Origin: Phoronis australis
Taxonomy: Eukaryota > Animalia > Phoronida
DNA: 64,000 nt
Assembly (NCBI GenBank): GCA_002633005.1
Contig: NMRA01000582.1
Coordinates: 38,610 to 102,609 of the forward strand
Direction of reading: 5' to 3'
A program made the translations under genes and the position numbers. The notes under the pieces were generated by a model that was not told the DNA's origin, searched no databases, and worked only from the letters and a program-made list of their open reading frames with translations. Below are positions 2,701 through 56,788 of the stretch, one piece after another (the first letter of the stretch is position 1; each line of letters starts with the position of its first letter).

Positions 2701-2805
2701 GAGGAAAGGAAGAAATTTGAGAAACAAACAAGAAACTATTGTCAGTCTGTGGAGAAACACCTTGCACTGAAAACCTCAAAAGTTTCCGACAACAGCTTAC
2801 AAGAG
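2701..2805 (+). CDS. Graf: Graf exon, BAR domain ([35 protein letters not shown])
   Basis: ttttag acceptor, gtaagg donor, 105 nt, phase 0-0; resembles the GRAF BAR segment. Confidence 0.93.
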
Positions 2806-14800: not shown

Positions 14801-17800
14801 GGACTCCAACTTAAGACTCAACCTTTCCCTCAGACGCTGAATGCAATACGAATGTGTAGAACTCATTCAAAACTGTTCAGGATTATTTCATGATTATTAA
14901 GTCTGAGATATGTTCTCTAGAGGTAAAGATATCGACCTAAATCTGTGCTAAGCCGGAGCCAAAGGCTCGTTCTGTTAGCGGCAATGTGGCAATATAGAAA
15001 CCCAGAGTCACAGAATTTAACTTGACATGTTAAGTGCAGGAAGTACTTGCATTGTGTACTAACTAGAACCAGATGACATGCTCAGTTCATGACTCAGTAA
15101 TGTTGTAACAGAAATAGTAATAGTTATATTTTAAAAAGAAAATATTAAGTCAGTTTTTTATAACGATCTAATATCAATTACTGACTTTCACCAATGTCAG
15201 TATGTTCGAGTTCACTGACTTACTGGTGATGCAGTGTTCAAGATAGTGGCTTGTGAACAGGAGGATCCCATGATTGAATGACGTTGCCATAGCAGCAGTC
15301 AGTATGGAGAATTATTTACTCCGCAATATGAGCTTATAACTTCATGATCTGTCCAAGTCATATACGAATTAGAATTATTACAAATTCTTTGATACTTCTG
15401 TCCTCTGATTGGCTGAAACAGGGTTCAACAACTTGTAGCACAATATTCGTGTGAAGCTTCACTTTTCATTCATGCCATCTGCATATCAGATGTCGCTGTT
15501 TGAGATCTGACCAGTAAGAAACCATACACCCTGACCAAGAAGTAAGCTGACAATGTCAGTTCATTAAGGCAGGAAAGAACAAGCGAATCTAATTAGAGAC
15601 AAAAAAACAGAGGAAAGAAGTGTCAGTGATCATGGAATATATCTAATAAAGGCCGTTCTCTCAGGTGTATCAGGTCACACTGACCTATCTAATATAGGCC
15701 GTTCTCTCAGGTGTATCAGGTCACACTGACCTATCTAATATAGGCCGTTCTCTCAGGTGTATCAGGTCACACTGACCTATCTAATATAGGCCGTTCTCTC
15801 AGGTGTATCAGGTCACACTGACCTCGGGAGAGTAACAGTGACTTTGTTTCCCCAGTGTTTACTACCTTATGTCATCCCCTGTATCAGTACGTATATTGTC
15901 AGAATGTGCAGTGCTAGACAATGTTCTTTTCCATTTTGTTATTGTGCACTTAGTTCATTCTACCAGTTTTAATTCTATGCAAAATTAAATGTGGTTGTTT
16001 TTGTGTGCTATCATTTGATATCAATCCAAAGTTTCATGGCTACATCCTGGAGACTGAAGGTCATACAGTACACACTTACCTTTAGTTAGTTCATGTTTGT
16101 TGAGCTACCGTACTGTGAATGTGTCAGTGATGCAGTTTTTGGTTTACAACCTGCTGACATAGCATCTAGTTTCATTGCAAAGCAGCTGTTTGGTTTGTGT
16201 AGGGTATTATTGACAAGTCTCTGTTTAGCCAAATGTCTACAAAATTAGATTTAGTCACTAAAATAATGTGTGAATATGTATGTATGTATGTATATATATA
16301 TTCGTAAATTTTAGCAAAAAGAAAGGTTCATTGATAACAAAACAATGGTATCTGAAAGATGTTCCAGATGATCTCTCAAAAGCATTTTTGTTGTGTGGGA
16401 TTTAAGAACTTTTTCATGAAAATCATAAAAGTCCTATTTTTGATTACCTCTCGTGCAAAAGTGAACATTTTGACGAGAATTCCTCGCAGCCTTTTGAAGA
16501 ACAGCGCCTTAAGCAATAGTATCCAAAAGTTTCATTTGAATCCAGTCGGCCATTTCTGAGATGTGGTGTTCTGAAGTTAACTAAATTCGGACGTTTTTCG
16601 TGGGTCCTAGCATAACCTTAATTGGATTTGTTCTGAGAATATGTTTTCAGAATTGTAGAAGTTTCTGAAGCAAAACTTGTTATTGAAGATTTTATAAGTA
16701 GAAACTGCTTTTTTCATTTTTCATACTAATTGACAGAGCTTCCTTCCATGGTAGTCCACCGCAGGGTTCCCGCATCATTTGCTATTCTACATTGATTTTG
16801 TTCTGTCAAGTACGGCCTTTCTGTTGAATACCGTGTATTTAGTAATGAAGGGCTCGCCAATGGTTACCATAGAGTTCCGTCAGTTTATAAGCTTCAATAA
16901 ACACGAGCTCTCTGGGACTGTCACCAGGATATTTTATGGTGAAACTGTGTAAAACTATTAACAATCAATATCTTGCTTATCTGAGGTCATTAGCCTTTAA
17001 ACCCTTTGCAGTAAAGTGAGAACCTATTACAATTTCAAACGTGTATTGTACAATTCATGCATTTCACCAAGGTCAATATGTAGTTTTTCAGACCTCAAAA
17101 AGTGGCAAAGACCGGGGCGAAGTCAAGACCAATATCAATTTTTTTAGTCTGAAAACTGCGTAGGGATTTAGACTGTAAGTCAATAGTTGTTTAGTACACG
17201 ATTGCCAATTGAAAATGATGAACTAAATTCAAAGTGAAGTGTTTTTATTCCTAAAATAAAGTTCCTATTATTATAACAACACAGAATTTGTAGAGTAAAT
17301 ATTGCAACAACAAAACATTTTATCGATCGATAAGAGGATTTTAAAATGCTAAAAGGAAATCCTGTACTGAATATTTTTTGTGACTTCACCTAAGGTCAAC
17401 ATAAATAGTCTTCTAGTTATCTAGGACCTTATCAACAAGTCATGCCTTTAGTCAAATATCTACAAAACTGGAAATGAAGTCTGCTAAATGGAAATCCTGC
17501 AGACATTGGTTTTGAACTTAATGCCAATCTGCCTTTAAAAAGAAAAGGAAAAAGAAAAAAAAAACAATGGTATCAATAATTTGACAAAATTTCACTTGAT
17601 ATAAATGTTACAGTTTTTTAAAAATGTAGTTTCGATTTCGTTTGTTGTAATTTTTGAGTTTTTTTCATGCGAATTATAGAAGTCGTATGTTTTTATTCTC
17701 GCTCATGTTAAGGTGGAACATCTTGAAAACAATTCATCACAGTTTGTGNTTGTGCACTTCGTTCATTCTACCATTTTTAATTCTATGCAAAATTAAATGT

Positions 17801-20800
17801 GGTAGTTTTTGTGTGCTATCATTTGATATCATTCCAAAGTTTCATGGCTATACCCTGGAGACTGAAGGCCATACAGTACACACTTAAGTTAGTACATGTA
17901 TGTTGAGTTACGTACTGTGAAAGTGTCAGTGATGCAGTTTTTGGTTTACAACCTGCTGACATAGCACCTAGTTTCATTGCAAAGCAGCTGTTTGGTTTAT
18001 GTAGGGTATTATTGACAAGTCTCTGTTTAGCCAAATGTCTACAAAATTAGATTTAGTCTCTAAAATAATGTGTAAATATGACTATGTATGTATGTATATT
18101 CGTAAATTTTAGCAAAAAGAAAGGTACATTGATAACAAATCAATGGTATCTGAAAGATGTTCCAGATGATCTCTCAAAAGCATTTTTGTTGTGTGGGTTT
18201 TAAGAACTTTTTCATGAAAATTATAAAAGTCCTATTTTTGATTACGTCTCGTGCAAAAGTGAAACATTTTGACGAGAATTCCTCTGCAGCCTTTTGAAGA
18301 ACAGCGCCTTAAGCAATAGTATCCAAAAGTTTCATTTGAATCCAATCAGCCATTTCTGAGATGTGGTGTTCTGAAGTTAACTAAATTCGGACGTTTTTTG
18401 TGGGTCATAGCATAACCCTAATTGGATTTGTTCTGAGAATATGTTTTCAGAATTGTAGAAGTTTCTGAAGCAAAACTTGTTATTGAAGATTTTATAAGTA
18501 GAAACTGCTTTTTTCATTTTTCATACTGATTGACAGAGCTTCCTGCCATGGTAGTCCACCTCAGGGTTCCCGCATCATTTGCTGTTCTACATTGATTTTG
18601 TTCTGTCAAGTACAGCCTTTCTGTTGAATACCGTGTATTTAGTAATGAAGGGCTCGCCAATGGTTACCATAGAGTTCCATCAGTTTATAAGCTTCAATAA
18701 ACATGAGCTCTCTGGGACTGTCACCAGGATATTTTATGGTGAAACTGTGTAAAACTATTAACAATCAATATCTTGCTTATCTGAGGTCATTAGCCTTTAA
18801 ACCCTTTGCAGTAAGGTGAGAACCTATTACAATTTCAAACGTGTATTGTACAATTCATGCATTTCACCAAGGTCAATACGTAGTTTTTCAGACCTCAAAA
18901 AGTGGCAAAGACCGGGGCGAAGTCAAGACCAATATCAATTTTTTTAGTCTGAAAACTGCGTAGGGATTTAGACTGTAAGTCAATAGTTGTTTAGTACACG
19001 ATTGCCAATTGAAAATGATGAACTAAATTCAAAGTGAAGTGTTTTTATTCCTAAAATAAAGTTCCTATTATTATAACAACACAGAATTTGTAGAGTAAAT
19101 ATTGCAACAACAAAACATTTTATCGATCGATAAGAGGATTTTAAAATGCTAAAAGGAAATCCTGTACTGAATATTTTTTGTGACTTCACCTAAGGTCAAC
19201 ATAAATAGTCTTCTAGTTATCTAGGACCTTATCAACAAGTCATGCCTTTAGTCAAATATCTACAAAACTGGAAATGAAGTCTGCTAAATGGAAATCCTGC
19301 AGACATTGGTTTTGAACTTAATGCCAATCTGCCTTTAAAAAGAAAAGGAAAAAGAAAAAAAAAACAATGGTATCAATAATTTGACAAAATTTCACTTGAT
19401 ATAAATGTTACAGTTTTTTAAAAATGTAGTTTCGATTTCGTTTGTTGTAATTTTTGAGTTTTTTTCATGCGAATTATAGAAGTCGTATGTTTTTATTCTC
19501 GCTCATGTTAAGGTGGAACATCTTGAAAACAATTCATCACAGTTTGTGTTGGAGGAGAGTGCATGAAACGTAGTATGTGTGTTTTGAAGGAGAGAGCATG
19601 AAACGTAGTGTGTGTGTTTTGGAGGAGAGTGCATGAAACGTTGTGTGTGTGTTTTGAAGGAGAGGGCATGAATGTAGTATGTGAAAGTTTCATATGAATC
19701 CAATGTGACATATTTGAAGTATGATGTCTTGAAGTTGGCAAAATTTGGACATGATGAAGTTGTGTGACGAATACCCACTGTGGCTTGCGGACTAAAAAAT
19801 TCCAGCATTGAGTTGCGATGGGATCTTTAGTACTTAAAAACATTTTAGAAGCAATTGGAGGAGTGTTATTACAACATCGGTCAATATGAATATTTATCAA
19901 CTCCGTAATATTGACCGCTAGGGAGTTCAAAAGTTCATAATCTGTCGGCAACATATAACTGGAGACAGTAAAGTCATGTCTTAGTAAGACTCCATGTGTA
20001 CATGTACATAGCTATGATTGGTTGTTTGAGTTTCAAACAATTTGATATCGCAGTTCCATTATACCTGGTACCACATCTGTTACTACACTTTAAACATTTT
20101 CTAAAACTAAATCATTGCCATAATCAAGTGAATCAGTAATCAACATTATCGATTTCATAGTTACGAATGTTTCCCGTTTTTGTGTTTTATTTATGGAAAT
20201 CAGTGGTGTCCTCACACAGATGCACACACAGGTCTCACACTGCGGACAGTAGACAGAATCAGATGACCGCTAATTTTTGTCCAAGAGTAAACTCCCCTGT
20301 GCCTTAGTCCAACCAGCACAGTCACTTGCACTGCTTAGTTGTCTGTGAACATCATGGTATGTGTCGGATGATTAGTGTTTTATCATCAAGTCCTGTTGAG
20401 ACTTGAACTTGTCTCTCTTATCCTATTGATTTCTCCGCGTTTTCTCAGTCGCTATTTTTCTGTTGAGATCCCGTGTTTTATTCTGCACTTGTGTTATTGT
20501 AGCTGCACAATGGCCGACTGTTGGATAGTTGTTGAGAATGATAAGTGTTTAGGGAGATGTAAGTGAAACAGGAGTGTGGTGCTGTGGTGACGTTACATGT
20601 TGTTGAAGGGCGTGGCACTGTCTTTTGGTGCCTTGGGAATGAGCAAGTTTTCTGAAGCTACTTCACATACAGTAGATTCTTGTGCCAAGACATGCTGTGT
20701 ACAAATATTTTGGTTTTAAATTACTGTATTGTTGCTGCATGTTAAATTAATTTCCTTGTTGTGTTACGGACAAGCTGGAAAGGAATCATACTAAAATATA

Positions 20801-23800
20801 TCGGCATTCCAAATAGCATACAATAGTCCTGAGAGACATGGTTAACAGCCATCGTTACCAGTCTGTGAATGCTTATGGAAAGTCTATAATATCTAAACAA
20901 AATTCATACAGCTTGATATGTATCACTCATCTTAATTCATTGATCTACAGAATCATCTCTGAATAACTGCTACCTGTGTGTTTTTGTGCCTCATGCAACT
21001 GAAATGTTAATATATCCTGCTATGTGTAAGACGTGTGACTGAATAATGTTCTTCTGCAGGTCATGAAGTCTCTGAGGAGTACAACCCTTGCGTGACCGAC
21101 CTACAGCTTAGAATACAGAAGGTAAGTTAGATGTAGAGCCATTCTTGACGTCCATGTTGCCAGCTTGGCTGAGCATAACATACGCTGGTGAACTACTGAA
21201 GTGATAACACTGATGTAGTGTTCTTGGTCTTCAGTCTATAATGTTGGCCTTCTGTTTAGGACACAAAATGGACACAACGGTGGGATTTCTTTTTGTCGAA
21301 TCTCCTAAGAAAAATAAAAGTTAGGAAAGTTCATTTCCATTTCCATGGTTTGTACTGTTTGGGTGTCATGTAAAATTTAGCATTTTGAGCATTTGTTGAC
21401 ATGCAAGTAAGCTATTGAATTAGACGAATTTATCATCTGTTTTTATCCTAGATTGAAGAATCTTTGTCATAAGTTGGCCTCATTGGTTTTTTCTATTGCA
21501 TTGTGGTCCTTCAGTATTGACAGTGCCATCTAACAACGTGACAGAAAAAAACATACAAAACATAAGTCTTCATTATGAAGCAGAACTAGATCTTTGGAGG
21601 GGTCTTCGTCAGTTACACTTTCCCAACAACAGTTGGGTCTCTGGAAAAATTCTGGATGTTTAAATCATCCATAAGTGGCCCAAAATGCTTTCCAGAATTG
21701 CTGAAATGTAAATGAGAAACTTTCACTGCTGAAATCATAACTTGTAGTAATTAAAATTTCTTATTGTCTAATCACCTGTTACATCTTCTCATCCACCATT
21801 TCCGATAGTGAAATATCTCTCGACCAAATAAATGGTAATGAAAAAATTCAAAACTTACAACTTTTGTAGGACTCACTGACCAGTTGTTGATATAAGTAAT
21901 GCACACGTAGATTCATCTGCTGGCCTTACTCTACATCAGGTGCACCACCGAGTCTGCATTGCGTGTCTTGTTCACTTATATAAGTGCACCGCTTTCTGTG
22001 TCTTATTCACTTAAGTGCAAGATTCACTTTTGCATGAAACGCATAGTCTGAATTCTGATGCAAGTCGCGTTGTCCACTATTGCTGTATTTAGTCTGCTTG
22101 TTGTGCTGTTGACTGCACACCTTTGGCATGGCGCAAACTTACATGGCTCAACTATACGTGTGGCCGAAATCTGACACGGCACAAATTAACACCTGTTTTT
22201 GAGGTAGTGCAAATGGTGTCACCAACGCCTTGTTCTGTGTAAACTCGCCTTCGAGATGAATAGTTACATGAAAATCTGATTTCAATCATGTCTTAGCTGC
22301 TCTATCTGTACTACTTAGCTATCTGTTTGTGGTAATGTGTTGCTGCAGCGTGTTTTTTATCCATCACTGACCCTTACCACAATTTCTGAGTTTGCCTCGG
22401 GAATAGTCGGTGATACTTATAATTTCCGCTGTGTCAGTTTGCGCTGAGTCACAAGGTTATTTTTGAACGTAGCATCTTTAGTGTTAACAGGGCCTCCATT
22501 TTGATAGAAAGGTATTTGTAATGATTATGGTGGCGCGAGTATGGAATCGATGATAATAATGGTAATTACAACCATAATAATAATAATAACAGTCATGCTA
22601 GTGAGCCTATTGATGTTGTGACAAGTACTTGCTGTGATTTTTGGAGCGAAGATACAGAAAATTTCCTTCATTTTGTGCGCAGAACAAAATTTATCATTTT
22701 CCTGAAAATTCCATGTCGTGATTGTGCGTTTGAAACAAACAAGTTTCTAATTTCTAAGTCCCAGTTCTCTTGCTCATCTGGCAACAGTTTTATCTCAGGT
22801 ATTCTAACCATTATTAAGTTAAATTTTAAATTTGATTTTTTGTTTAGATAAAGATTACAATTCATGGGCAATGTCTTCAGGGAACCCAAACAGTGTATTG
22901 TTGATCCGTGGGAGAGTCACTCATTCCTGTGAGGCTGTTTGAATAACCTTGTTCACTTCTCCCTAATCACCTTAGTTATCAATTAACTTTCTTAATCTCT
23001 TTGGTATGAGAGTGAGACCATTTGATCATTCAAGGGGATGTGTAAGATTTTGAGAAGGGACTGAGGCTGCTTGTTCGTAATCAGTTATGAATGTAAAGTG
23101 TTAGGTGTAGAGCTTAGAAGTTGTCTTTGATTGTGACGGCTTGGTAGTTTGTGATCACGCTATTTGCCATAACACAGGCCGCTTGCGCTGCAACTGAAGA
23201 CAACAAACAAATATCACCGTCCATGTCTGTACAATGCTTCTATTGTTGAGTACAATCACTATGGTGGGTGCACATGTTCAGATATGTCACAAAGTATCAG
23301 TATGGAGTCGAAGTACTGTTTATGTCTAAATGTCTTTTACCCCTTCTCATATCAGCTCATCATCCATTAGAAACAGGTTGAAAGAGGGAGAACAACAGAG
23401 AACAAACCATTAAGGGCTGTGTTGAAACGCATTTACAAGTAGGATATAACTTTTACGCAGCAGGCGTTGCTAAACTAATGTCATTGTGCACTTTCTGAGT
23501 TGCTCTTTCTTGGTTTACAACTTGTAGAGTAGAGTTATGGGGTTCTTATGTGAAATAATGGTGGCTAGTCACTTGAGATTAACGGTGGTGCCATCTAGCT
23601 GATGTGGGAATAGTTAACTGTCTGCTTATGAATGACTGTCAAACTTGAGATACAGTAAAAGCCCAATGGATGAAGGCGTTGTTTGAAGTGGATAGGTGTA
23701 CATTTAAAGCTTGTACTCTTTTCAGCTAGAAGGCATTTGTCATCAGCACCATCTAATTAGTTTCTATTACTTTGCTTAGGGACCGCAGTCTCCAAACTTT

Positions 23801-26800
23801 ACTCGAGACTCAACTTGAAAATTGACCAAAAATACTCAAAGCAAGGCACGCGATTCGTCAATTTTCAAATCGAATCACGAGTAAAGTTTGGTGGTCAAAG
23901 GTGCAGATCTCCACTATCTTTTGAAGTGCCATTTATTTATTTTTTACTTGCTAGCATTACGTGAGATTTGTTCAGTCTCTTTTGCAGATTGCTTGACAGT
24001 TTCTATTCTTTTCATGTTTTGCCAATCATGAGTTATTACCTGTTCTGTTAGTCTTGTCATTTTGTTTCTCGCTTGCACCTCTTTTCCTTTTGCAGCTCCG
24101 GGAAAATTTTGTTAATTTCCGATGGGAGGGCGAGAAATTGATGAACAAAATACTCTCAGTACGCTGCCAGGTATAGGCTGACTCCGCGTGCATGCCGTCT
24201 GCCACTGTTTAAACTTGTCATGCATTCCATTGAAAAAGCTCAGTTTTGTTCGATGAAGATTGGCCAATGCCATGCTTGAAAGTAATTTTGACACAAAAAA
24301 TTGGTGACACTGGTCGTAACGCGACTGACTGAACCAACCACCACTGCCACATACCTGAGTATGAATTCAAAGTTTTTAACGAAAGCGCTTCGTCATGTGG
24401 GAATATTATGTGATGCTGCATGACTGTCTATTAAACTGGTGATGTTTTCTGTAGTGTCCATGAACACTATTTTTCACTTCGAAATGAACCTGGCAAATGA
24501 TCAATTGTTTTGATTATAGGACCATTGAATACTATCTAATGATCTAATGATACAATATCTCAATAATTTATAAGCCTCTGCAGTGCTTACTATTTTTTAT
24601 GACACAAGAGATTTGTCAGTTATCAGCCTCCGCTACTTTTTTTGTATCGTGCACACAGGTTCATGATGCTCTTAAATATATGATTAAAAGGGTGTTCTTT
24701 GGGGAACTTGGCTATGATATGCATGTTGCTGTGGTTATGTAGGACCCTCGAAAAATGGCCAAGTTTGACAAACTTTGGAACAACGTATCTCAGAAATGGC
24801 TGATTGGATTCACGTGAATCTGTCAGATACCGGGCTTTATGCACTGTTCTCAAATGTACCGTGTGGAATTATTTTTTTAAATTTCCATTTTTGCGTGAGC
24901 AGTATCATAAAATGGGAATTTGATGATAACTTTGAAAAATGTAACACCTGTTTTGAGATTTCATCTTGAATATTTATAATATATGGAACAAAATTTGGTC
25001 TTCTTATCTATATTGTTGTTTTTGAATGTACCTTTTTTGGTAAACTTTACTAAAAAGACATGGTCATGTGACCCAATTAATAACAGATTGATATAAAACC
25101 AAAAATCAGTTTCTGCATGCTTTCTACATTCAGAAAATATGTACTTTTAAATCTATAGTTCTGTATATATATGACTAAATACACTGACAAGGTCCTACAT
25201 AACCTTATAGAAGTTCAAAGGATGATAACAATGTGGTTTTATGTAAACAAAATATACTTAATGGTTTTCACAGTTTCCCCAATGCCAAGGTCAATCTACA
25301 AATCACAAACCTCGAACTAAAAAAATGAAGCCAACAGTGGTGTGTTTTCTTGTTGAAGAGATCAATGATTCCGTTGTTCCTTATAGTCCACCTTATAGTC
25401 CACCTTATAGTCCACCTTATAGTCCACGGTGTTATCTTGTGCAATTGGCTACGCTACCTCGTCATTTCCGAAAACTAAGAATGGCTTCCACCTCAAGTCA
25501 TGTGGCTTTAAAAACAAAATTAGGTCAAATACTTCTGCTGCTTGGTCGCAATGTTTCATCTTACGTTTGTCTAATTTATAACAAGCATGCCTGATTGTTT
25601 AGTATTTTGCTTTTTTGTTGTATCCAGTACAATCGCATGTTTTGTTTTACCAAACATTTATGTTTTAAAGCTTCTCTCATGCTAACGTAGCTCTAGTTCC
25701 ATAGGAACGTCGATGTAATTTCAAATGGCAAAATGGCTTCGATAGTTAGCGGACACCAAAGTTATCTCTGTTTGATCTATGAGTCATCAAAGTTATTACA
25801 AGGTGGCTATCCAAAAATGTTATGCAGGGTGTATTTTTAATTTGAAGTATTGCCTGTATGTTCAGATAATAAATGAATTGAAGTGCATATAGTGACTATT
25901 GGTGAATATTTGAAAAAATGTGAAACAATTGTCAGCTTCATCTGTTGATAACTTCGATGACACCGAAATTACCCGTTCACTCGCTGCTGTGTTATCCACC
26001 TGCTTTAACTCCAAAGTTAAGTTGTGCTGGTAACCCCAGTCCATGACTGAAGTTAACCATTCACATCGACTGAAACTCCCCAAAACATGTATGTGTCGAC
26101 GTTTATATGGAAGACCATTTAGTCCAAAGTGCATGTTTAACGAGTAGTCATTGGTGCTTAGTCACGCTGAAGACTTCTAACAGCTACAGTAGATTTACAC
26201 CTTCCCTAAGTACTGCAACTGCTGCAACTGTAAACGCATGTCTACACCCTCAAATGGAGGTACTCATCACAAATTGAAGTAAAAATATAAAGTAAAGATA
26301 TTTACTGTTTTAGTGGTGTTATCATTGAAATATTTTTCATCATTTTCCTTTAAATTTTAAGTTTTGTGTGGAATAGTTGAGATTGACGTAATTTTTGCAA
26401 TAATTAGGTATCCTGTCTTTTAATTTTCAATGGTTCTTATTTACGATCATCTCCTTGCATAATTAATTAATGGGGGTTCTCTCACGGTGTTTTCAAAGTC
26501 AAATCATTGTCTATAATTTAGAACCACATAATGTAGGTGATGGAGAAAGTGAACATTGACGTGTGGTACATCGAGTCTAAAGTCTTGTCTACACACAGCT
26601 TACCTTAGAATAACTTGCAGTAGTGCAACTTAGCCCACTTTTAAGTGGAGCATCCAACTGCACATTTCGGATAACTAGGGTAAGGCGAAGTTGTCGCTCT
26701 GTGCACGACAATGGACGTCTAATGCAAATACGACACGCAAAAGAACACCCGTCTATATGTGACTGCAGTTGCCAATTACTCACGCCTTGCCCCAGGTTTG

Positions 26801-29800
26801 CAGCCACGCAGTGATTAGAAGTGGCGCAAGTTACCTCACCTCGATGATGTGGAGTAAGTTGTCACAAGTGGGGTTAGTTGTGCTAGTTTTAGTTGTGTCC
26901 AGACAGCATTCAAACCTAGCAACAACTCATTCAAGGAGGAAGTTATTCTAGAGTAAGTCTGTGTGCAGACTTCACGTATACCGTTGTTGCACTGGATTTT
27001 AATCTTTGTGGAGATAAACATGTATTGTTGCATCTGCTATTCTTGGGCAGTTGATGTGATAGTAAAATAGTGTTATTTCCGTCTGCACATTATGGCTTTA
27101 CTATCGCCATCCTGTCACTTTCCAAAAAGCTGGAGTTTAATGTGGCCACAATTCTGAAGAGAAATTCTAGCAAGATAGATTGTCTTGTTTATTTAATACA
27201 TATTGATTTTTCTGGGGGCAATGTCTACACACATGTTAATGGCCACCTAAGGGTTATGTTGAAGAAGATTACATGTAACCAGCTCTAATTCTCTCTCTTT
27301 CTCATGCGTACAATAAATTCTCTAATTTCAGTCAGACAGAGCCGATCAAATAACCATTTCTTTAGTAAAAGGCTAACTGTATAAGATTCGCAATTTGGGA
27401 CAGTCTAATGAATTTGAGACATGGCAAATTATTCAAAAAAATGAATTTTCATTCTGAAATCTGGGACAAGGGTGATTCATTATCGTATTTCTCAAATTCT
27501 GTATTCAATCTACAGAGTGGGTAATTTTGTCGTCTTTCCAATGTTTCTTAACTTTAGGACAACAAATATTGTGCAAACCATGCTGAGAATTAATCGAAAC
27601 TTCATTAATTTTTATTTTGTGGATAACTTTTGCCAAAAGGAAATTCCACCTGTCTGTCATATTGTGTGAAATCACGTAACAGGTCTTTAAACTAAGGTGT
27701 AGAGGGATCGCATGTTTTTGAACTGGATACAGTGTGGCAGGATAGTGTAAATTTGATTTCATGCAAATTTTCAACAAAAATAAATAGGAAGTAAACTTTA
27801 TTTCGTCATTTTTGTAACTGATATTCTACGTCTGCCATCAACAAACACGCAATGAAATTAGTGCAAAACACTACAGTGGGCTTTAGAAAAAGAAAGCTGT
27901 GAATTTAGGCGGTTATTTATGTTCGAATCTGAGGAGTTACCGTAATGTGGTGTACACAGCAAAAGTTGTATGCTCTGTGCGTCTCATTAATTTTAAGGGT
28001 ATGGGCGTTATGTGTCGGCTTTCATTGGAAAAATGTTGTGATTCCAAACTATGATTGTGTCACAAGATGGAGTAGTACAAAAAGTATGTGTTTCTAGTGG
28101 AACTTCCTACACATATACAGTACATGTGGAATGTAACTAGGTAATACTGTTTCCTAGTCATGACATTCAATTCCCCTTGCAGCAAAAGTGACTGGTAATG
28201 ACTCATTGCAGCAAAACACTAAATATGGATTAGCGTTTCCATTTCAGTAACTTGTCCTCATTCAGTTATGAGGGACTGTCACAAAATGATGAAGTCTACT
28301 TGTATCTATTGCCATCATGACGTAATTCTGTTCATTTTTCAATTACTTTTAGTATGTATTCCGTATGGAAAATTTTCTCAGTAAAGATTGGTGTCAAAAT
28401 GTTATTTTTCAACGAGTCTATTGTGACTGCGCGTATCAAGGCTGCAAGGGCGATCTGTTGCGGTAAAAATTTACTGTGAAATAGTTTTGTAATTAAAGCT
28501 GAAATTGATTTTTTGTTTCTGACCATTGGAGCGCAACATTCTTTACTCTCTTCATATGTGTTCAGTATCATAAACTGCGCAGAACGTTCAAACGATTCTT
28601 GAAACGGGTCTCTTTCTAGTTCATAAAAATCAAGACTTTTCAATATTTGTGCATTCCAAAATTGCTCATATGCACATCTTCCAAAATCAAAGGCATCCAA
28701 AGATAAGTCATTAATTATCATTATCATTATCATGATTCAGTTATGTTGTTTCAGTTAACTGATCTGTTGTAGCATTAGAATGTATGAAATAGGGAATTTA
28801 CGTTGCGTATACTTAGTTAGGGAAACAGTCTTACACAGAAATTCCTGCAGTGCACTTGTGGTTGCTTTTCTTGTTCTAAAACTTACTTTGTGTGCAGCTT
28901 TTATTAAGAACTTGTTGTATTTTGCAGACTCGTGACAACTTTGATGTCACGCGAGAGGAGTCCGAGCACCTAATGAATAAAATACTGGAGGTGCGTGGCA
29001 CGGTAATGGTAGTTTTGTTTATTTAACCTCGGTCACGACTGTGTCCTCCATGTTACTACCCAGAGACTCAATGTTTAACCACCCAAAGATACGGGGAAAA
29101 TATGTTTTGGAAGACATTGTGTTGGGAAATAAGTCCATATTAGAATGAATATTAATTATGAACTGTAATAGCGGTGTGACTGAGACACCAAGGGGAAATC
29201 ATGGTTTTCTTTTGTCAAGTAGTTACTGAAGAATTTGAGATGGGTCTGAAAGCTCTCACTTTTCAAATATTTTGACACTGTTTCTCGTTGACTACTTTTC
29301 TAATCCATTTTCAGCACTGAAAAAGTTTTGGTTGCTCATCCCGCTGTCCTCAAAACTTGCAAAAGTTGTTTGTCAAACCCAGAGTACACCAAGGTGCTAT
29401 CGGCTCACTTTCTTCCAAAAACGTTGAACTTCATCAAGACCACAACAGTGATCTTGGCTTGTTCTTTGAACTAAAGGCTCATTACTGCTCGAGACCACGC
29501 CCAGCATTTCCGTTGACCTGTCGTGTAGAACTAACTTTTTGATCCTGGTTTCCAGCAGTAAAGACTTCCAATCTCATTGATGAATAATTAGAGGCTAATT
29601 TTACGATCTTACAATAATTTATGCAAATTCATAGTTATTTTTAGCCTAAGGTTGATTCATAGAAACTTTAATTGGTGCCTTGTGTCAGAGTTTGGTTGCA
29701 TTCTATTGAAAGTAATCTACAAAGAAACTTAATACTCAAGGTGTCACTATACTATGATTATGTTTTAGTTGCGCCCCCTGTGTGTTCTTCTTGTTTTAAT

Positions 29801-32800
29801 GTCTGAACAACATAATTCAGCACTGCAAATTAATATGTGCGATGATCCTTTATATAATTTCAGCGTCTTGATAAATGTAACCTCACTGCCAAAATATAAC
29901 CTGCATATTTTCTTAAACCCAACGCTCAGATTAAATCAAAAGTTTTATTTTTCTCAATTTCTTGTCTGTCGTTTGCTGCTTGCAGTTATTCTTTTGTTCA
30001 TTTCTCACCTTCAGAAGCCTCAAGACGCTCCAGTTAACAAAAGGGTTACCAGAGAAGGATATTTGTTTCTCCAAGAAAAAAGTAAGTAGTAAGTGAAGGT
30101 AAAAAGTAATTTAAGAGGCTGAAAACCGTCCTTACATCACAAAAAATCACCTTAGACTGCTTTTTGTTATGAAATTGTGTAATAGTTATACTGTTGATGA
30201 TAGGAGAACTTCATAAGAATTGACAGTTAGTTATAGCTTGAGACCAGGCTTCATATATGTTGTCATGTGATGGCGTGTCATTTTATGCGCCAAACACGGT
30301 CTCGGGGAGTGACTAACCCTCAGTTCTTTGCAAATCAAGAAATCATGTCTCACCCGAGTAAGGAACAAGTTGAGACCAATTTTACTGCGATAAGTTGTTT
30401 AAATAAATTGTTTGCTTCTTGGAGGGAATTCAAGTTTACGGACATTTTAAAAGGTGGAGCAATCACTTTTGATGTCAGGTTTAGTAAAGATACAGATATT
30501 TAATTACCTTCCTCATGCTAATTACTATTACCTGTCTTGTATCTACGATCCTTTGAGCAGTAGAAAGTGATATAAATGACGTACCAAAGGACCAGCATCT
30601 TGGTTTTCCATTCACTTCCATTGAGGAAATGTGGTGTCCTACTCCCTATTAAATACAGTCTACCAGGTCGTTGTTTGCTCAGTGGAAGTGAATTTTGAAT
30701 TGCAGATGTTTTCCTAATGACAAGAGTGGTTGATGTTGATTTTCAGACGGTCGGTCTACTGTAGCACCCCCTAGGGGCAATTTTGTTTTATTTCTTGCAT
30801 TCTGTGTCTCATCATTTCTTTGATTTCTAATATGGCTGTACGTGGTTTGTTGTCAGAGGCCTTGACGACAACATGGAGCAAGTATTACTGCGAGTACAAG
30901 AAAGAAAAGAAGAGTTTCTCCATGGTGGCCTACAATCAAGCCAGCGGAAGTAAAGTGGTAATGCCAGAGCCGTCGACGCTCAGTTCTTGTGTCAGGTAGG
31001 TGTATCGTGGTGATGAACACCTGTATGGTAAAATGATGCACCTTGTTCATTCTTGATCACTTTTATAGTGATGTCCTATTATCTAGTAAAAAAATTTGAT
31101 GTGGTGTCATCATGCGATGACTTGGAAGTCACACACAGCGCTCTCTATTGCCAACTTCTTGAAAAGACATTTATATGGCAGATTAACATTTCTAATTTTA
31201 CGTGACTTGCTTGTGGACTGAGTGGAGCTAGTTAACTGCCTGAGTAGTCATTTCTTTGTCACAAACTTGATTTGTTTTTGTTTGACCTTTTGGTTGTATA
31301 TGGATGTTATTTGTTATTTGTTGGGCAAGAATGCTAATATACACATTTGTGTTGGAATAATATGAACGGATTGAAACAAATCTTTTTTAAATTCATATTC
31401 GCATGAGTTGTTCTAAATTTTTACTATTGTATCATTGTAAACCATTTGCTTTGAATTATTGGCCCATTATGTATTATACCATGTCTGCAGTATTGTCTGT
31501 TCTTTCTTTCAGGCGTGCATCAGACTCGATCGACAAGCGGTTTTGTTTTGACATCACACTACAAGACAAGCCAGGCACTCTAACACTTCAGGCTCTCTCC
31601 GAGGATGACCGTAGACTCTGGCTGGACGCCATGGACGGCAAGGAACCGGTAAGGTCGAAGGTCACAGGCTGGACATCATGATCTGATTGGTTGTTTCTAC
31701 TAGCAACTGTTCACATGGCAGATGTGATCCTACGGAGCTGACAATGGATGATGACAAGATTCTGACTAATCTGACTACTGCTGTGCCCCCTAGTGCCAAT
31801 TTTAGTCATTTCGACTGTATCTTCTGAGTTAATTGGTGTATTTTTTCAAAAATTTTGCAGACAGGTTTCTGTTATGGAGTTTATGATCATTTCCATTTTT
31901 GGACAGATTCAACATATTCTGCGCCACCTGGTGGCCATTTTTATCATTTGCCTCTGTACCAGCCAAGCTACTCAAAACATTATGAAAATTAGGAGTCGTG
32001 TTCTTCCTGACAAGAGCACGACTGACATGGATTTTCAACACCCTAGTGGCTGTATCTCTTAAACCCCTAATAAGATTGTTTGGAAATAGGCAAGTGTATT
32101 GCTATTAACTTGACAACAGATGGGCGGATCTGACTACCATTGTGCCACCTATTGGCAATTTGTTTTTTCACATTTGCTTCTGTAATTTTGGAGCACTTGA
32201 TAAATTTTCATGCATAGTTTTGTATTAGGGAGATGACTAACACCTTCTCAGTTTCGGATGGGTTCAACATATTCTGCACCATCTAGTGGCCATTTTTATG
32301 ATACCAGTAAACACCCCTAGAAGCATACAATTTGCGTTGTAGTTGTAGGCTCATTTCAATGCTCTGTCTTGCTCTTGTTACTTTTACCAGTGTACATTTG
32401 ACAGAAATGTCACATTTATGAATGTATGAACAGGAATGCTCTTAAGTCATTCTGATGCTTATCATGTCTCTTATGGTGATTTTTAAGTCATTCTGATGCT
32501 TATCATATCTCTTATGGTGATTTTTTTTCTGTCCAATCATTAATGATTATAGCTCAGGATTTCACTTTGCATTTTGCAAATCTGGAACTCATGGGAGTTC
32601 TACTGTGTTTCATTTGTATTTTTGTACTCAACCACCCACGTGTGTAGTCACCTTGGCTACCGCCTTGTGCCTTCCATGTCTATCACTTAGGAACATAAAT
32701 AGCGCAGACTCCACTTGGGTGTATCGTGTAATTTGTAGTTCTTTTCTCTGCATTTCTCCACAGATTTATCAGGAGACACAGCCTCAACCAGAACGTGAAT

Positions 32801-35800
32801 ACACAGGTATTGTATGAGTGCATGCTGCCTGTTGCGGGGTGAAGAGTGCTGCTTTATCTTAAGTCATACTCTTCAAGATTGAAGCGAGTATGATTTAAAT
32901 GTTAGTCAACTATTCGAATGAAGCGTTTTGACTGAAACTGGGAGGTCATCCTTGGTTTGACTTCAGGTGTACTCTTATGGTTAAAACTTGTTTGTCAGGT
33001 GACTTGTGAACTTTCAATCCGCCACCAGCAAAATTAGGTGTTCACTCGTGTCTTTATGGTAACTGTATACATGTACCATAAATTGTATTTGATTCATCTA
33101 GACTCTACAGTGGTACCTCAGTTATAACTCTACAGTTCACTCACTAGTGTTTAAGGTTACTGACATGAGACTATGAATGGCAATTACTATCACATGATAT
33201 GGTAGAAAAGTTGAAAAATTTTTGTTCTGTCAAATTTGTGTTGCTAAAAGTAAATGTTTGGAAATCCAACTTCTACAATATCTAGGCAATATTGTTTGTA
33301 AACTATTCAGGTTTCAAAAATGAAAAATAACTGTTTCGGTAATTTTTATGCAAAATAAGGGAACTGAGGTGCATGTGTATTTGCTAGAGTAGTGGACTTG
33401 TTACTAACAACTGGCCGGTCATTTGTTGATCTAGGTCTGCTGGATGAGGTGGGCTTCAACTTTGTGACTCTGTGCATTACTAGCATTGAGAAGCGGGGTT
33501 TATCTGACCAGGGGCTCTACAGGGTGGTCGGTGTGAGTTCAAAAGTCAACAAGCTGACCACCATGGGCTTAGGTATGTATTCTATCGCAATTACTTTGAG
33601 TAATCATTGTGCTGGATTCTGTTTATTGTAAATATATATCATGTACCGAGAGAGTGCTGTCATAGTGACCTTGAGAACTAACTGACTTGAGAGGGCGTGT
33701 ATTGTGCGACAAACTTTGGATGCCACATCAATTGCCACTGCTTTATTAATGTTTTACGTGAACCATGTTGTAGACCGGCGGAAAGCCGAGAAGTTGGACC
33801 TTGATAAAGATGGAGAATGGGAGGTGAAGACCATAACTAGTGCACTCAAGACTTATTTCAGGTACAGACAGTCTGATGTATGTGTGGCAACCGTGCAATT
33901 TTTGTCTGTCCTATAATATCGGTAGAGTTGAGTGTAATGAAGACTACATAGCGAACGTGCTTGATAAGCTGTTATGTATGTACACTCATGTCGAACCTTG
34001 ACCTATATTTTGCCCTTGTTAAGCTGTCATTGTTGGTTTTTTAACTGAAATGCTCTGGAGTTTATAAACTTAAACACGCTTATCCAATCTTGAATTATTG
34101 CTGAATGAACTGGCTACTCAAGTTGCAGGCGATGCGTATATGCATCAATTTTGAATCTGCAGTTTTAGTGTTGACCAAATACAATTAAGTCTGAAGGGTT
34201 GTCTTGAGTCAATGATGGTTTCAGTGCTCTTGGTTGGTAATGGAGATAGAACCCTATCATGGTAAGGAATTGTATGGGACGAATATTATGAATGAAATAC
34301 TTAATGCAATTTTCATTTTTAGTCAGCTGAACAGGGCGAAATGCAGCACTGCTTAACCAAGATGGTCTCAAGCAATTTGTTATTGATGAAATTTGCTTTT
34401 ATATAAGCATTTTAGGAAATTGGAAAGTTTTGAATTCAGTTTCATGAAAATGTGAGGTCACGGATGTGATTTATTGAGAACCTTTGATGATTATGAAATG
34501 TGAAAAGGTGTCACTTGTTAAATCATAAATTGTGAAATTTTTACCTTTTCTGACAAGTTTTTGTTTCCTAGAGTCAAGAGACAATGTTAAATAGACAATT
34601 TTTGCTTCTATTTTTTAATGTTTTATCTCTGTCTTGCCACAGGACCTTACCTGAGCCACTTATGACGTTCAGTTTTCATGACCAGTTTATCGAGGCAGCC
34701 AGTGAGTACAAATAGTTTGACTAACAACTGTCCATGAGGATGAATAAAACATGGTCTGGCTAACTGTCACTGAGAACTTGTAATAGCTGATTTATTTGTC
34801 AAACATATAAGTACCAGGTGCTTTTGACCTTTTTGGATGTGTCAGAGATTTGAAATATGCACGTAGTCATTAATTCTTTTGTTGAACCATTGACTAAAGA
34901 AATGTTACCTTATTGTATGTTTTTTGGAATTTTTTACCCACTATGAGAGTTTTTAGCAAAAACATCCAGTGTTGGCGATATAGCAAAAGATGGTCACACC
35001 ATAAGCATTTATTTGATAAGGTGACGTGAACATTTCATCAAGTTAGTGAAAGTATCCCTTTCTAGCAAGAAGGATCTTAGTCAGATGAAATCAAAGGAAT
35101 TTTAACTGAGTTTGTCCATTTTTTAAATCTAGAATAGATACATGATACAGTTGATGGCTGTAGTGATTAACAGTACTATAAATTAGTGGTGTCCGAAATT
35201 TAGAAATGCGTTGTTTGCAAGTTTCTGTGCTCTCAATTTTCACAAATGGTGAGATTGTCCTAAATGTTAAAGATTGTACTCCATGTGACAGTTGCACATC
35301 AATTATTTGCAGTGTGGCTAATTTTGCTTCTTTGACTGCCGTAGAATTGTCAGAGAAAGAGAACAGAATCCAAGCCATACACAGTTTGCTGTATCAACTG
35401 CCCAGCTCCAACTTTAGGATGCTTGAAGTTTTGGTCAAACATCTACACAAGTAAGTAGGATGGCTGTCCATGTATTAATGTTGGTGTTTAAGTTAGAACA
35501 AGGTATTACAGCCTGACATCTTGTGATTGAAGTCATTTTGAAAGATCTATTATGATTTGGGAGTATCCCATGTGCTAAGTGCTGAAATGTTTTGAGATGT
35601 TCGTGCACTGAATAAACATGGCAGCTGAAAGGAGGATCCCAAGGTCCTTGTCTTCACATTTTTGGGATGCTCTTGGTGTGAAAGTCACATCTGTGAGGAA
35701 TGACTTCAGGTACACTGTCGTGGAACACACCTGTACAGTAGTGACTTTCAGTCTCATGATGTATTTAGATGTCGACAGTTTGAAAAGGCCATTGTTTCTG

Positions 35801-38800
35801 TTATGAGCTGCCATGTTGATTTTTTTAATCTTTGTGTATAGTGAATTGTGGGTGAATTTTTAACTTAAAAATATCATGGCTAAACAATCGTCGTGATTTC
35901 CTTCAGTTACATGTTCCCAATTTTGCATCGGACGTCACATTTGTCTGTTCCAGTGTGGCCAGTAACAGTCAACAGAACTTGATGACGGTGGCCAATATTG
36001 GGGTGTGCTTTGGCCCCACCCTGCTGAGACCACAGGAAGAGACTATGGCAGCCATTATGAACATCAAGTTCTGTAACATCATTGTAGAGATTATGATTGA
36101 TAATTATGACAAGGTAACGCCATGTTCTGCATTGGTTCTGGGTAGATTGATAATGAACGTAATTGGCAGTGGATGAAGCTTTTACATTATATTCGCTTAG
36201 GTTTTGTAGGACCCTATAAAATGGCCAAATTTGGCAGACTTTAGAACATCATACCTGACAAATGGCTTGTCAGATTTATATGAAACTTTCAGGTACTGTG
36301 CTTTGTGCGCTGTTCTCAGAAACGTTATTAGGAATTGTTTTGAAATGTTCCCTTTTTGCATGTGGGTCTGTCAGAAAAAGGATTTTTACGATTTTCATGA
36401 AAAATCTTTAAAATCTCATAATTAAAAACAAAATGATATTTCAGAATACTGCAACCTTGAATATTTATATTAAATAAAATTCAATCGTGTTTTGATACCA
36501 TTGTTTTGTTATCCATTATTTTATTTTTTGATAAATTTTACATAAAAGACACGGTCACGTGACCCAATTTATAACAGATTGGTAGAAAGTCATTCCATGT
36601 CAGCTTCTGATGACATTAATTTGGCTCATAATTTTTTGTTTCATAAGACACGGCCATTTTTATTGGATGAGGTGATTGAATGAGTTTTCTACTCGCAGCT
36701 ATTTAAATGTCCACCAGATGTCAACGCTAACAGCAAGCTGCAAGTTGTCGGACCAGTGGAGATTGATCTCAAATTCTCTGCCAACTCTGTGCCTGTCGAC
36801 AGGGGAGACAATATCCCATCGGAGCCGTCCAGGGAGGATAACTATGCCAAGCATGGTAGTGGTGGCAGTGACAGCCTGGACAGGGGAGACAATTCGAGCA
36901 CGCCTACTCCTAATTCGTCAGCGACCTCGACACCGAGTCTCAATAACAGTACCCCGAAGTCACCTCGTCAAACTTACGCTGAGGCACGTGCCAAGCTGAG
37001 GCCTTCGACCATCTACAATCCAAGTTCTTCGGGAGGAACCGGTGAGTACACTATGTCATCACTGAAGAGTGACATCTTTGAAGCCCTTTGACTTTGATAA
37101 CTTTCCAAATAACTCTCTGGTTTTCGCTTCAATACGTGGTTGAACTTAATGACGCCCTACTTTTTAAGCATTGCACATTTTCCTGGATCCGTTGTCATTA
37201 ATTGGGATTCTTTTGTATGTGGATGCAATGGTGTCAAAAGAGTCAGTAGCAGTTTCCACTGACTGCAACTACCTGACTGCTTAGAGCGCACTCTTGTGGC
37301 CTGGGTGTGACTTAAACGTTACAGAGAGGTGGTAGATATAGCATCTTTTTGGTTGCCACAGTATTGCATCAGTGCATTGGGTTTTTGTTATCTTGACTTT
37401 AGTTGAGAACAGTGAATTGTTTTTATAATGATGAATGGATAGAAACATCAGGTATTTTGAGATCTCGTTCAGCCTTCAACTTAAAAAAGCTGTATTTTGC
37501 CCCTGTTTAGCTGTCAGTGTTGTATCACTAACCAAAGTGTTTTGTGTTTTAATAACGTCACCACGCTCACTCAATCTAGAATTATTTCAAAGGCAACTCA
37601 AGTCATAGGCAACGCGTACATGCGCCATTTTCGAATCCGCAATTTTCGGGCTGGCGAGTCCCATAAACTCTTAAACATTTAGTTGAGTCACTGATTTGGT
37701 AACGAGAACAGAATCCTGTTATGATAAGAAATATTATGAGACCAATTTTGAGAGAGAAGGCGTGTTAAACAGGGCAAAATGCTGCTTTAAATATGCACTG
37801 TGTATGTACGATGTACATTATGCATCGCTGTGCTGAAATGAATTAAAGTATCACTCTGGTATAGGTTCATGGTCTTGTAATTAGGGAGCTTCAGAAACAG
37901 GGCTAGGCTTATACTTGGGTGAGCTGACGTGGGGCATTTGTGCCCATGGGGTTGTATCACACACACTGACCCACATGACATGCATGTGATGAGCACTCGC
38001 TGTCGGGATGTGTTTTTCTAGACAGTTTGGTGCCCACCTGCCTTTATGCAGGGTACTCACGGTAGAGGTTGTCTGTTCAAAACGAACTAACGGGTAAAGG
38101 GGGGGGTGGGATTGTATTGACTAGGTGGCTGCATACATTAGAAAAATTGGGGTTTGGCTTATATTTGCATTAAAGGGCTTGCATGCCATTGTGAAGATAA
38201 TCCAAGATTGGAAGTGGAGCTTATACCCGGGGGTGGGCTTATACCCGGGGGTGGGCTTATGCCCGGGGGTGGGCTTATGCCTGGGGGTTGGCTTAGCCAG
38301 GGATGGGCTTACATTGTCGGTAAAATTTACACTGGGGATGGGCTTTTTACCAGAGCGAATACGGTACGTTGTGGAAAAATTATGTTTTTCCTGACTGGAA
38401 AATTTGGAGATTTTGATGTCTAAAGCTGTCGTGTTAATACTATTTACAAATTGCTTGATAAGTGGTTTCCCCGTCCCTCTCTGTAGGCTATAGTCCCAGG
38501 TATAGTTACACAGGTAAGTCTATAAACGCCAGTTCTCTGTTGGCAGATACAGTTGTTTGTGTTGTTGATGTGATCCTTCTGCCCACAGACGCTTACTGAT
38601 CTAATGTAACCAGAGCGTAGACAGACACTGGCTCATATAGTAAGGCTTTCTAAGCTTAGAGCACATTGCGACAGAACGTTAGGATCTTAGTTTGTCAAAT
38701 TTCTCTTCAATAATGAATTGTTTACTTCATTGAGTAGGACAGTGTAGACTATACATCTGTCATCAACCAACAGAGGGCGTTCTGTTACATTTCTCATTCA

Positions 38801-52821: not shown

Positions 52822-53437
52822 AGACTGGAGTGGTGACCCATTCAGTTGTTATTGGGGTACTGCCAATAACCAAGTACAGACTGGAGTGGTGACCCATTGA
52901 GTTGTTATTGGGGTACTGCCAATAACCAAGTACAGACTGGAGTGGTGACCCATTCAGTTGTTATTGGGGTACTGCCAATAACCAAGTACAGACTGGAGTG
53001 GTGACCCATTCAGTTGTTATTGGGGTACTGCCAATAACCAAGTACAGACTGGAGTGGTGACCCATTCAGTTGTTATTGGGGTACTGCCAATAACCAAGTA
53101 CAGACTGGAGTGGTGACCCATTCAGTTGTTATTGGGGTACTGCCAATAACCAAGTACAGACTGGAGTGGTGACCCATTCAGTTGTTATTGGGGTACTGCC
53201 AATAACCAAGTACAGACTGGAGTGGTGACCCATTCAGTTGTTATTGGGGTGCTGCCAATAACCAAGTACAGACTGGAGTGGTGACGCATTCAGTTGTTAT
53301 TGGGGTACTGCCAATAACCAAGTACAGACTGGAGTGGTGACCCATTCAGTTGTTATTGGGGTACTGCCAATAACCAAGTACAGACTGGAGTGGTGACCCA
53401 TTCAGTTGTTAGTGGGGTACTGCCAGTAACCAAGTAT
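52822..53437. repeat. 56-bp minisatellite x 11 just 3' of the Graf stop codon
   Basis: Unit agactggagtggtgacccattcagttgttattggggtactgccaataaccaagtac; period checked at 52822, 52878, 52934. Confidence 0.97.
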
Positions 53438-56654: not shown

Positions 56655-56788
56655 TCACTCCATGATGTCATTCAAAAACAGCGCCCTCTTCTGGACACTG
56701 TCTTCGCCATATTTCTCCACAAGGAAGTCATAACTGTCCTCATCATTAAGAAGTAGGTCGTCATCCTCTGGCATCCAGCCATTCTCAC
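56655..56788 (-). CDS. TERF2IP: RAP1-like last exon (GENGWMPEDDDLLLNDEDSYDFLVEKYGEDSVQKRALFLNDIME*)
   Basis: ctacacag acceptor on the - strand, phase 1, TGA at 56657-56655; RCT signature. Confidence 0.88.

What the first reader, a model, noticed from the sequence alone, without database searches (positions are those of the whole stretch)
24096..29002. Hidden pair of duplicated, probably mutually exclusive exons at the BAR-PH junction of Graf
Seen: two exons 4.8 kb apart, both exactly 75 nt and phase 0-0 with good splice sites, encoding [25 protein letters not shown] and [25 protein letters not shown]. They share 14 of 25 residues without gaps, but their codons differ at several synonymous sites and I see no homology in the flanking introns. 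That argues for an old exon duplication kept by selection rather than an assembly repeat. Known: GRAF/OPHN1 proteins have one copy of this helix, and the BAR(-PH) module binds and tubulates membranes and autoinhibits the GAP domain. Inference: the exons are used alternately, changing the charge and hydrophobicity of the helix (DVTREESEH versus VNFRWEGEK) and so tuning dimer geometry, membrane binding or autoinhibition. I do not know of a described mutually exclusive exon pair at this position in the family. Neither exon appears in the ORF track in this frame.
Basis: partly seen in the sequence, partly recalled or inferred. Interest (0 to 1): 0.85.

Follow-up and report, generated by a model that had tools for sequence, protein, structure and literature searches.

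The report
Spare swappable helix exon in GRAF
An invertebrate's gene for GRAF, a membrane-shaping enzyme that switches off Rho signalling, carries two old copies of one small exon, one used routinely and one seen spliced in only rarely, and likely swaps them to change the outer helix that is predicted to keep the enzyme switched off.

Summary
A lophotrochozoan GRAF/ARHGAP26 gene has two 75-nt, phase 0-0, AG/GT-bounded exons with 14 of 25 residues and 44 of 75 bases identical and unrelated flanks. Neutral decay of copy A since duplication is rejected (simulated P about 0.002). RNA: copy B is the major exon (29 reads join the upstream exon to B, skipping A). Copy A is spliced at both ends in 2 reads of one run, perhaps one molecule. 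Its partner exons were not displayed, so mutual exclusivity is likely but unproven, and nothing in the sequence enforces it. The exon encodes the distal half of BAR-PH linker helix alpha4, on the convex (non-membrane) face by homology to APPL1. Both copies keep E245, modelled to hold the GAP arginine finger, but A turns the surrounding surface from net -2 to +2. No such pair was found in human or fly catalogues or in 13 isoform sets of other animals; no close relative was available. The scan noted similar BAR-exon pairs in endophilin and PICK1 elsewhere (unchecked). Verdict: new member of a known kind.

The parts
21060..21121 (+). Upstream constitutive exon (proximal half of helix alpha4), donor AAG|gtaagt
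   Evidence: tblastn; in-frame translation; joint 21121>28928
24096..24170 (+). Exon A: derived, minor duplicate of the distal alpha4 exon (net charge +2; keeps E245-equivalent at its residue 11)
   Evidence: 2 reads of run X2 fit 24094-24170 and run on unlike
24171..28927 (+). 4,757-nt GT-AG intron between the copies; in-frame stop (GTA TAG) right after donor A; repeat remnants; no pairing element above shuffles
28928..29002 (+). Exon B: ancestral-type, major copy (net charge -2)
   Evidence: (11+12+6 reads in, 5+6+9 reads out)
28988..28996 (+). Candidate internal alternative donor GAG|GTGCGT in exon B that would drop the last 4 residues (inferred; weakened to TCA|GTACGC at 24156-24164 in A)
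   Evidence: 7 of 9 consensus match; same 2-4 residue tail is optional in Daphnia, Haliotis, Acanthaster and Maniola isoforms; use here not seen in the shown joints
30015..30081 (+). Downstream constitutive exon (BAR-PH linker and first PH strand)
   Evidence: 29002>30015; 30081>30857
2701..52731 (+). Host gene: GRAF/ARHGAP26 orthologue, BAR residue ~129 to SH3 and stop; its first exons lie upstream of the window

Best explanation
This GRAF/ARHGAP26 gene holds two diverged copies of one 75-nt exon, of which B is spliced in routinely and A rarely, and it likely uses them one at a time to swap the distal half of BAR-PH helix alpha4, which is predicted to retune the outer surface on which the RhoGAP domain is held inactive. 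Shown: the duplication, its age, selection on A's reading frame, B as the major exon, A spliced at both ends. Inferred from homology: the exon is the outer (convex-face) helix that packs on the partner subunit and leads into the PH domain. Both copies keep the buried stripe (F5, L15, M16, I19) and the Glu equal to GRAF E245. A makes the buried face bulkier (T1L, T8F, with S12G one turn away) and replaces exposed acids (D6V, E10W, E21S, H14K; net -2 to +2 per subunit). The most likely effect is looser or altered docking of the GAP domain, or a new partner site, in the cells that choose A. Exclusivity is probably set by trans-acting splicing regulators and by folding constraint, not by a built-in lock, so some leak is expected.
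For: Sequence. Selection: pS 0.70 vs pN 0.33; if A had drifted neutrally to 31+/-1 differences, mean identity would be about 9 of 25 and P(>=14 identical and no stop) about 0.002 in each of 3 settings, before counting intact splice sites and no indel. Shared positions are the more family-conserved ones (0.59 vs 0.44, Mann-Whitney p=0.03, 96 distinct segments from 211 hits). The ancestral exon is 75 nt in 3 of 7 intron-containing loci from other animals, 72 nt in 3 near-identical loci, and longer in 1. A has a strong acceptor (15 of 17 pyrimidines) and a donor as good as B's (6 of 9). RNA: 29 reads and one contig join 21121>28928 and skip A. In run X2, 2 of 3 reads laid on 23961-24410 cover exactly 24094-24170 (the first 2 letters are the AG shared with the upstream exon's end) and run on unlike for 20 or more letters. 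Structure: helix 212-256 in the AlphaFold model of homologue P0006; alignment to APPL1 alpha4, around D243-L254; alpha4 lies on the convex side against the partner's alpha3 and gives over 40% of the buried dimer surface (PMC1933402, passages). A GRAF3 docking model puts GAP on the convex face with the arginine finger paired to E245 (PMC7226614, passages); E245 is exon residue 11.
Against: A rests on 2 reads, possibly one fragment, in 1 of 3 raw runs; X4 and contig set X1 gave 0 and X3's pair ran unspliced through A's donor. A's partner exons were not seen. No enforcing mechanism was found: long intron, both exons multiples of 3, both GT-AG, and 7 of 8 flank pairings were no better than shuffles, the eighth reaching 2 of 40 uncorrected. 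A breaks three well-conserved family positions (T1 71%, T8 75%, E21 62%) and scores 16.8 bits on a family helix profile, below the homologues' 5th percentile of 19.9 (B 37.6). No relative with A was found, but no close relative of any kind was found either. The E245 contact is a docking model, not a structure, and E is present in only 63 of 96 segments. I did not model either isoform.
Confidence: 0.6

Rival explanations
1. A was once a selected alternative exon but is now a decaying pseudo-exon that leaks into a few percent of transcripts.
For: 2 of 31 reads (95% interval 1-21%), seen in 1 of 3 runs; residues rare in the family at 9 positions (5% or fewer of the segments); low profile score. 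The simulation excludes drift since duplication, not a recent loss of function.
Against: No stop, no indel, ancestral length, strong acceptor and intact donor; the changes sort by helix face, which suggests selection. No variant was listed in A, but depth was only 1-2.
Confidence: 0.17
2. A is an optional cassette spliced in front of B, lengthening alpha4 by 25 residues and pushing the PH domain away from the BAR tip.
For: A+B keeps the frame, so no decay filter applies, and no lock was found. The one X1 contig over the junction stops exactly 30 nt into B, which could mark a second path entering B. This linker takes optional inserts of 10-26 residues in Haliotis.
Against: Equal length, equal phase and residue-for-residue homology fit substitution; the Haliotis inserts are not helix copies and lie after the helix. 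The contig end is equally explained by unspliced RNA or a polymorphism. No homologue among 338 proteins carries two adjacent copies of the helix (the single double hit, P0223, repeats a longer block 142 residues apart).
Confidence: 0.13
3. A serves mainly as an alternative last exon: reading through its donor meets a stop two codons on, giving a BAR-only protein that would act on full-length GRAF in trans.
For: GTA TAG follows the donor and an ATTAAA lies at 24430. Reads ran from A into, or lay just behind, the following intron in X3 and X2, and none lay in the 130 nt upstream of A. Human OPHN1 has a BAR-only splice form made by another route (PMC3956665, section 16).
Against: Both spliced A reads stop at the donor, 24170. 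Scattered sense-strand intron reads of the same depth (0.2-1) occur elsewhere in these introns.
Confidence: 0.07
4. Assembly artefact: two alleles or a collapsed repeat placed in tandem.
For: The window has such duplications beside N gaps.
Against: Those are 89-97% identical over more than 1 kb; A and B are 59% identical over 75 nt with unrelated flanks and no gap nearby. Reads 95-100% alike cover A and its downstream intron.
Confidence: 0.01

Closest known systems
Homologous mutually exclusive exons / tandem duplicated exon substitutions (human catalogues PMC8373072, PMC5740500; fly list in PMC9741552)
   Same: Two adjacent homologous exons of equal length and phase coding one structural element; one major and one minor exon (a section heading of PMC5740500 states this pattern; seen in passages).
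   Different: No ARHGAP, OPHN1 or GRAF row in the searched supplements (positive controls found). Exclusivity and regulation are not yet shown here.
Vertebrate GRAF1/ARHGAP26 and OPHN1 splice variants
   Same: Same family and domain order; isoforms are known.
   Different: GRAF1a/b/c differ in the unstructured region before SH3 (PMC4215711, passages). OPHN1 variants skip exons 9-10 after the BAR domain (PMC3956665, section 16). Neither swaps a helix copy.
Optional tail and inserts at the GRAF BAR-PH linker in Daphnia, Haliotis, Acanthaster and Maniola RefSeq isoforms
   Same: The 3' end of this very exon varies between isoforms in 4 of 13 isoform sets.
   Different: Those change linker length; in 0 of 13 sets do the first 21 residues (the helix) come in two versions.
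APPL1 BAR-PH helix alpha4 (PDB 2Q13) and GRAF-family BAR autoinhibition
   Same: The exon aligns to distal alpha4; GRAF BAR-PH binds and inhibits its GAP (PMC7226614, passages; Eberth 2009 seen only as a citation there).
   Different: No solved GRAF BAR-PH structure was among the PDB hits; known relief of inhibition in GRAF3 is by phosphorylation, not splicing.

Membership tests
Tandem duplicated exon pair | Two adjacent homologous exons, same frame and similar length | tested here: met
   75/75 nt, phase 0-0, 14 of 25 residues, score 54 vs background maximum 24
Validated mutually exclusive exons (criteria of PMC5740500) | Junction reads that include B and bridge A | tested here: met
   21121>28928: 11, 12 and 6 reads in 3 of 3 raw runs plus one contig
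Validated mutually exclusive exons (criteria of PMC5740500) | Junction reads that include A and bridge B (24170>30015) | tested here: inconclusive
   2 reads leave A at 24170 but the partner exon was not displayed; not among the 15 of 46 joints shown
Validated mutually exclusive exons (criteria of PMC5740500) | No reads joining A to B | tested here: inconclusive
   Not among the shown joints, but 31 were hidden and A depth is about 2
Validated mutually exclusive exons | Regulated (tissue or stage) choice of the minor exon | not testable with these tools
   Three raw runs of one study, tissue not given, 18-19% of each read
Validated mutually exclusive exons | Both copies conserved in related species | tested here: inconclusive
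   No close relative in the collections searched; single copy in all 7 intron-containing loci of distant animals that hold the exon
MXE enforced by steric clash, frameshift/NMD or U2/U12 mismatch | Very short intron, lengths not divisible by 3, or mixed splice-site classes | tested here: not met
   4,757-nt intron; 75+75 nt; both GT-AG with U2-type donors
MXE enforced by competing RNA pairing (docking/selector) | Conserved competing complementary intron elements | tested here: inconclusive
   8 flank pairings near the exons at shuffle level, best 2 of 40; 120 weak inverted pairs, none convincing; no Rfam match; conservation untestable
GRAF/ARHGAP26 family | BAR-PH-RhoGAP-SH3 order and orthology | tested here: met
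   Pfam PH, RhoGAP, SH3; BAR exons by tblastn to GRAF homologues; best PDB hit GRAF GAP 1F7C, E 1.7e-21; 43-63% identity to 27 homologues

The most novel reading that the evidence does not exclude
A splice-operated switch on RhoGAP autoinhibition: the minor exon rebuilds the convex-face docking helix around the conserved E245 contact, giving a de-repressed or re-targeted GRAF and lopsided A/B dimers in chosen cells. Together with the scan's endophilin and PICK1 cases, it would make BAR scaffolds a repeated, convergent target of exon duplication in invertebrates.
Probability: 0.22. Interest if true: 0.68.

Novelty: new member of a known kind. Interest (0 to 1): 0.42.

Why it matters
The structural basis of GRAF/oligophrenin autoinhibition rests on a docking model. 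A natural pair of isoforms that differ at 11 residues of the modelled docking helix, with the central Glu kept, is a ready-made test of that model. It also adds a family, and possibly a domain class, to the list of convergent tandem-exon swaps, and it is the kind of short exon that gene models miss. The splicing mode itself is well known and the event seems confined to one lineage, which caps the interest.

Tried and rejected
No whole genome was held for the window, so no genome-wide checks. The run search listed no indexed holder on record as RNA; I take this as no evidence either way, and the raw runs were laid instead. Protein search with exon A plus 15 upstream in-frame codons found no candidate; search with a PH exon found no hit, so the database lacks close relatives and the blank is uninformative. 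Metagenome scan with the A/B alignment: 180 pattern matches, none confirmed. PDB search with exon B alone gave one chance hit. RNA pairing, inverted repeats and Rfam gave nothing above background. dN/dS alone (0.44/2.04, near saturation) was judged too weak and replaced by simulation. The supplement search of PMC7954323 missed its positive control SNAP25 and is discarded. PMC8067379 (fly Graf) has no text on isoforms or exons. The AlphaFold monomer of a homologue has pTM 0.35 and its BAR-PH arrangement does not superpose on APPL1 (rmsd about 40 A); I used only its secondary structure. No complex prediction was run, as it could not compare the two isoforms. Paper searches for a described pair; two searches returned 0 papers, one search returned 2 with unrelated titles (listing only). 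Subscription papers, including the original fly MXE survey (recalled), and bioRxiv supplements were not searchable.
Full report
Observation. They share 14 of 25 residues and 44 of 75 bases; 7 of the 14 shared residues use different codons. A scores 54 against B where the best of the other 127,844 frames in the window scores 24. Flanks are unrelated (30 of 98 and 27 of 98 ungapped). There is no third copy.

Host gene and organism. Pfam, PDB and tblastn identify a GRAF/ARHGAP26 orthologue, BAR-PH-RhoGAP-SH3, from 2701 to 52731, with its first exons outside the window. With B, the exons from 2701 to 36113 read as one open frame. In a 28-row tree the protein falls in a 9-row group with Owenia and molluscs (99/98), so the animal is a lophotrochozoan; the nearest sequence is 64% identical, so no close relative was at hand.

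Is A under selection? pS is 0.70 and pN 0.33, but dS is near saturation and B's own constraint inflates the contrast. I therefore simulated A drifting neutrally while B stayed constrained, keeping runs with 31+/-1 differences: mean identity about 9 of 25; P(at least 14 identical and no stop) 0.0017-0.0023 in three settings; rough further factors of about 0.15-0.18 for intact splice dinucleotides and 0.02-0.17 for no indel. Positions shared by A and B are more conserved in the family than those that differ (0.59 vs 0.44, p=0.03; 96 distinct segments from 211 hits). Against this, A departs from the family at T1, T8 and E21 and scores 16.8 bits on a helix profile (B 37.6; homologue 5th percentile 19.9). 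A is the derived copy. The simulation excludes drift since duplication, not a recent loss of function.

RNA. Four runs were offered: one contig set and three raw stranded runs of one study, of which 18-19% was read. The joint 21121>28928, which skips A, has 11, 12 and 6 reads and one contig; 29002>30015 has 5, 6 and 9 (15 of 46 joints shown). On 23961-24410, X2 gave 3 reads, X3 2, X4 0, X1 0. Two X2 reads lie only partly on the stretch and run on unlike. Depth is 2.0 in all five 15-nt bins of A; the bin before holds 4 letters, which fits 2 reads times the AG that also ends the upstream exon; the bin after holds 13 letters, all accounted for by the third, intronic read if it is 151 long. My reading is that both reads are spliced at both ends of A. 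They are one first and one second mate by my inference and may be one molecule. Their other letters were under the display limit, so I cannot say whether A joins 30015 or B. The X3 pair (24099-24289) crosses A's donor unspliced. A is thus 2 of 31 reads (95% interval 1-21%); the two counts are not of quite the same kind.

What the exon encodes. In the AlphaFold model of homologue P0006 a helix runs from 212 to 256 and the exon's last four residues start the loop to PH. GRAF aligns to APPL1 BAR-PH at E about 2e-18, with the exon on distal alpha4, give or take one residue. In APPL1, alpha4 packs on the partner's alpha3 on the convex side, supplies over 40% of the buried dimer surface, and its D243, M247, I251 and L254 contact the partner's N-terminus (PMC1933402, passages). 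A GRAF3 docking model places the GAP domain on the convex face and pairs the arginine finger with E245 (PMC7226614, passages). In full-length vertebrate GRAF sequences the exon starts at residue 235, so E245 is exon residue 11, a Glu in both copies. On a helical wheel, positions 1, 5, 8, 12, 15, 16, 19 form the hydrophobic face: A keeps F5, L15, M16, I19 and changes T1L, T8F, S12G. The opposite face changes D6V, E10W, H14K, E21S; net charge goes from -2 to +2. Inference: A would still fold into the dimer but show a less acidic, more hydrophobic outer surface beside the modelled GAP contact. Direct membrane binding is on the concave face according to the same paper, so it is the less likely target.

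How one exon is chosen. The known built-in locks (PMC6071210 and PMC5740500, passages) do not apply: the intron is 4,757 nt, both exons are multiples of three, both are GT-AG. Flank pairing was at shuffle level in 7 of 8 tests and 2 of 40 in the eighth; inverted repeats and Rfam added nothing. I infer choice by trans factors, with B as default, although A has the stronger pyrimidine tract (15 vs 10 of 17), which hints that A is actively repressed. This step is untested.

Other animals. In 13 isoform sets (68 proteins, 67 matched; Daphnia 15 of 23 members listed) the first 21 residues never come in two versions, while in 4 of 13 the exon's last 2-4 residues are optional and Haliotis adds linker inserts. 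Of 26 metagenome loci, 11 hold the exon, 7 with introns; each has one copy, 75 nt in three, 72 nt in three near-identical loci, longer in one. So 75 nt is the ancestral-type length, this junction is an old site of splice variation, and the duplication looks lineage-restricted. Annotated isoform sets miss minor exons, so absence is weak evidence.

Literature. No ARHGAP, OPHN1 or GRAF row in the supplements of PMC8373072 (controls), none for ARHGAP26, ARHGAP10, ARHGAP42 or OPHN1 in 10 files of PMC5740500, no Graf in the tables of PMC9741552. Known GRAF1 and OPHN1 variants lie elsewhere. Full-text searches listed no description of this pair; I read listings only, except for the papers named. The scan's notes list BAR-exon pairs in sea-squirt endophilin and an invertebrate PICK1; I did not check them. 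Look-ups by sequence and place found nothing.

Verdict. A real, old, selected tandem exon duplicate with direct but thin evidence that the hidden copy is spliced. It works most like a homologous mutually exclusive pair (0.6); formal membership awaits A-to-30015 reads and the absence of A-to-B reads. New member of a known kind; interest 0.42.

Noticed in passing
window 28988-28996 (exon B) and 24156-24164 (exon A): Internal donor-like site 12 nt before the exon end, strong in B (GAG|GTGCGT), weak in A. The same tail is optional in arthropod, mollusc and echinoderm GRAF isoforms, and locus L025 has the identical site. The 29002>30015 joint has 20 reads against 29 and 38 for its neighbours (Poisson P about 0.008), as expected if some transcripts use it.
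   Followed up: partly
window 15932-19548 and 44528-50449: Tandem duplications of 1.8 kb (97%) and about 2.5 kb (89-95%) meeting at a single N (17749) and at a 612-N gap (47069-47680): probably uncollapsed alleles in the assembly.
   Followed up: partly
window 52822-53436: About 11 near-identical (98%) head-to-tail copies of a 56-nt unit just after the GRAF stop codon, in the likely 3' UTR.
   Followed up: no
window 23792-23891: 38-nt, 87% inverted repeat with a 24-nt loop, about 205 nt upstream of A's acceptor; reads of both strands with many differences pile here, so probably a small transposon relic.
   Followed up: partly
window 41019-41231 and about 43650-43820: Ser/Pro-rich open frames between GAP and SH3 that look like further, possibly optional, exons, in the region where vertebrate GRAF1a/b/c differ.
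   Followed up: no
window 28926-28955: The X1 contig over the 21121>28928 joint ends exactly 30 nt into B, as an assembly graph would if a second path enters B (unspliced RNA, exon A, or a polymorphism).
   Followed up: no
window 56675-63999, minus strand: Open frames of 71, 87 and 207 residues (56675-56887, 61871-62131, 63379-63999) suggest a neighbouring gene facing GRAF tail to tail; no Pfam match for the three.
   Followed up: partly
protein P0223: Repeats the helix and PH start 142 residues apart, probably a gene-model or assembly duplication, not an exon pair like this one.
   Followed up: partly
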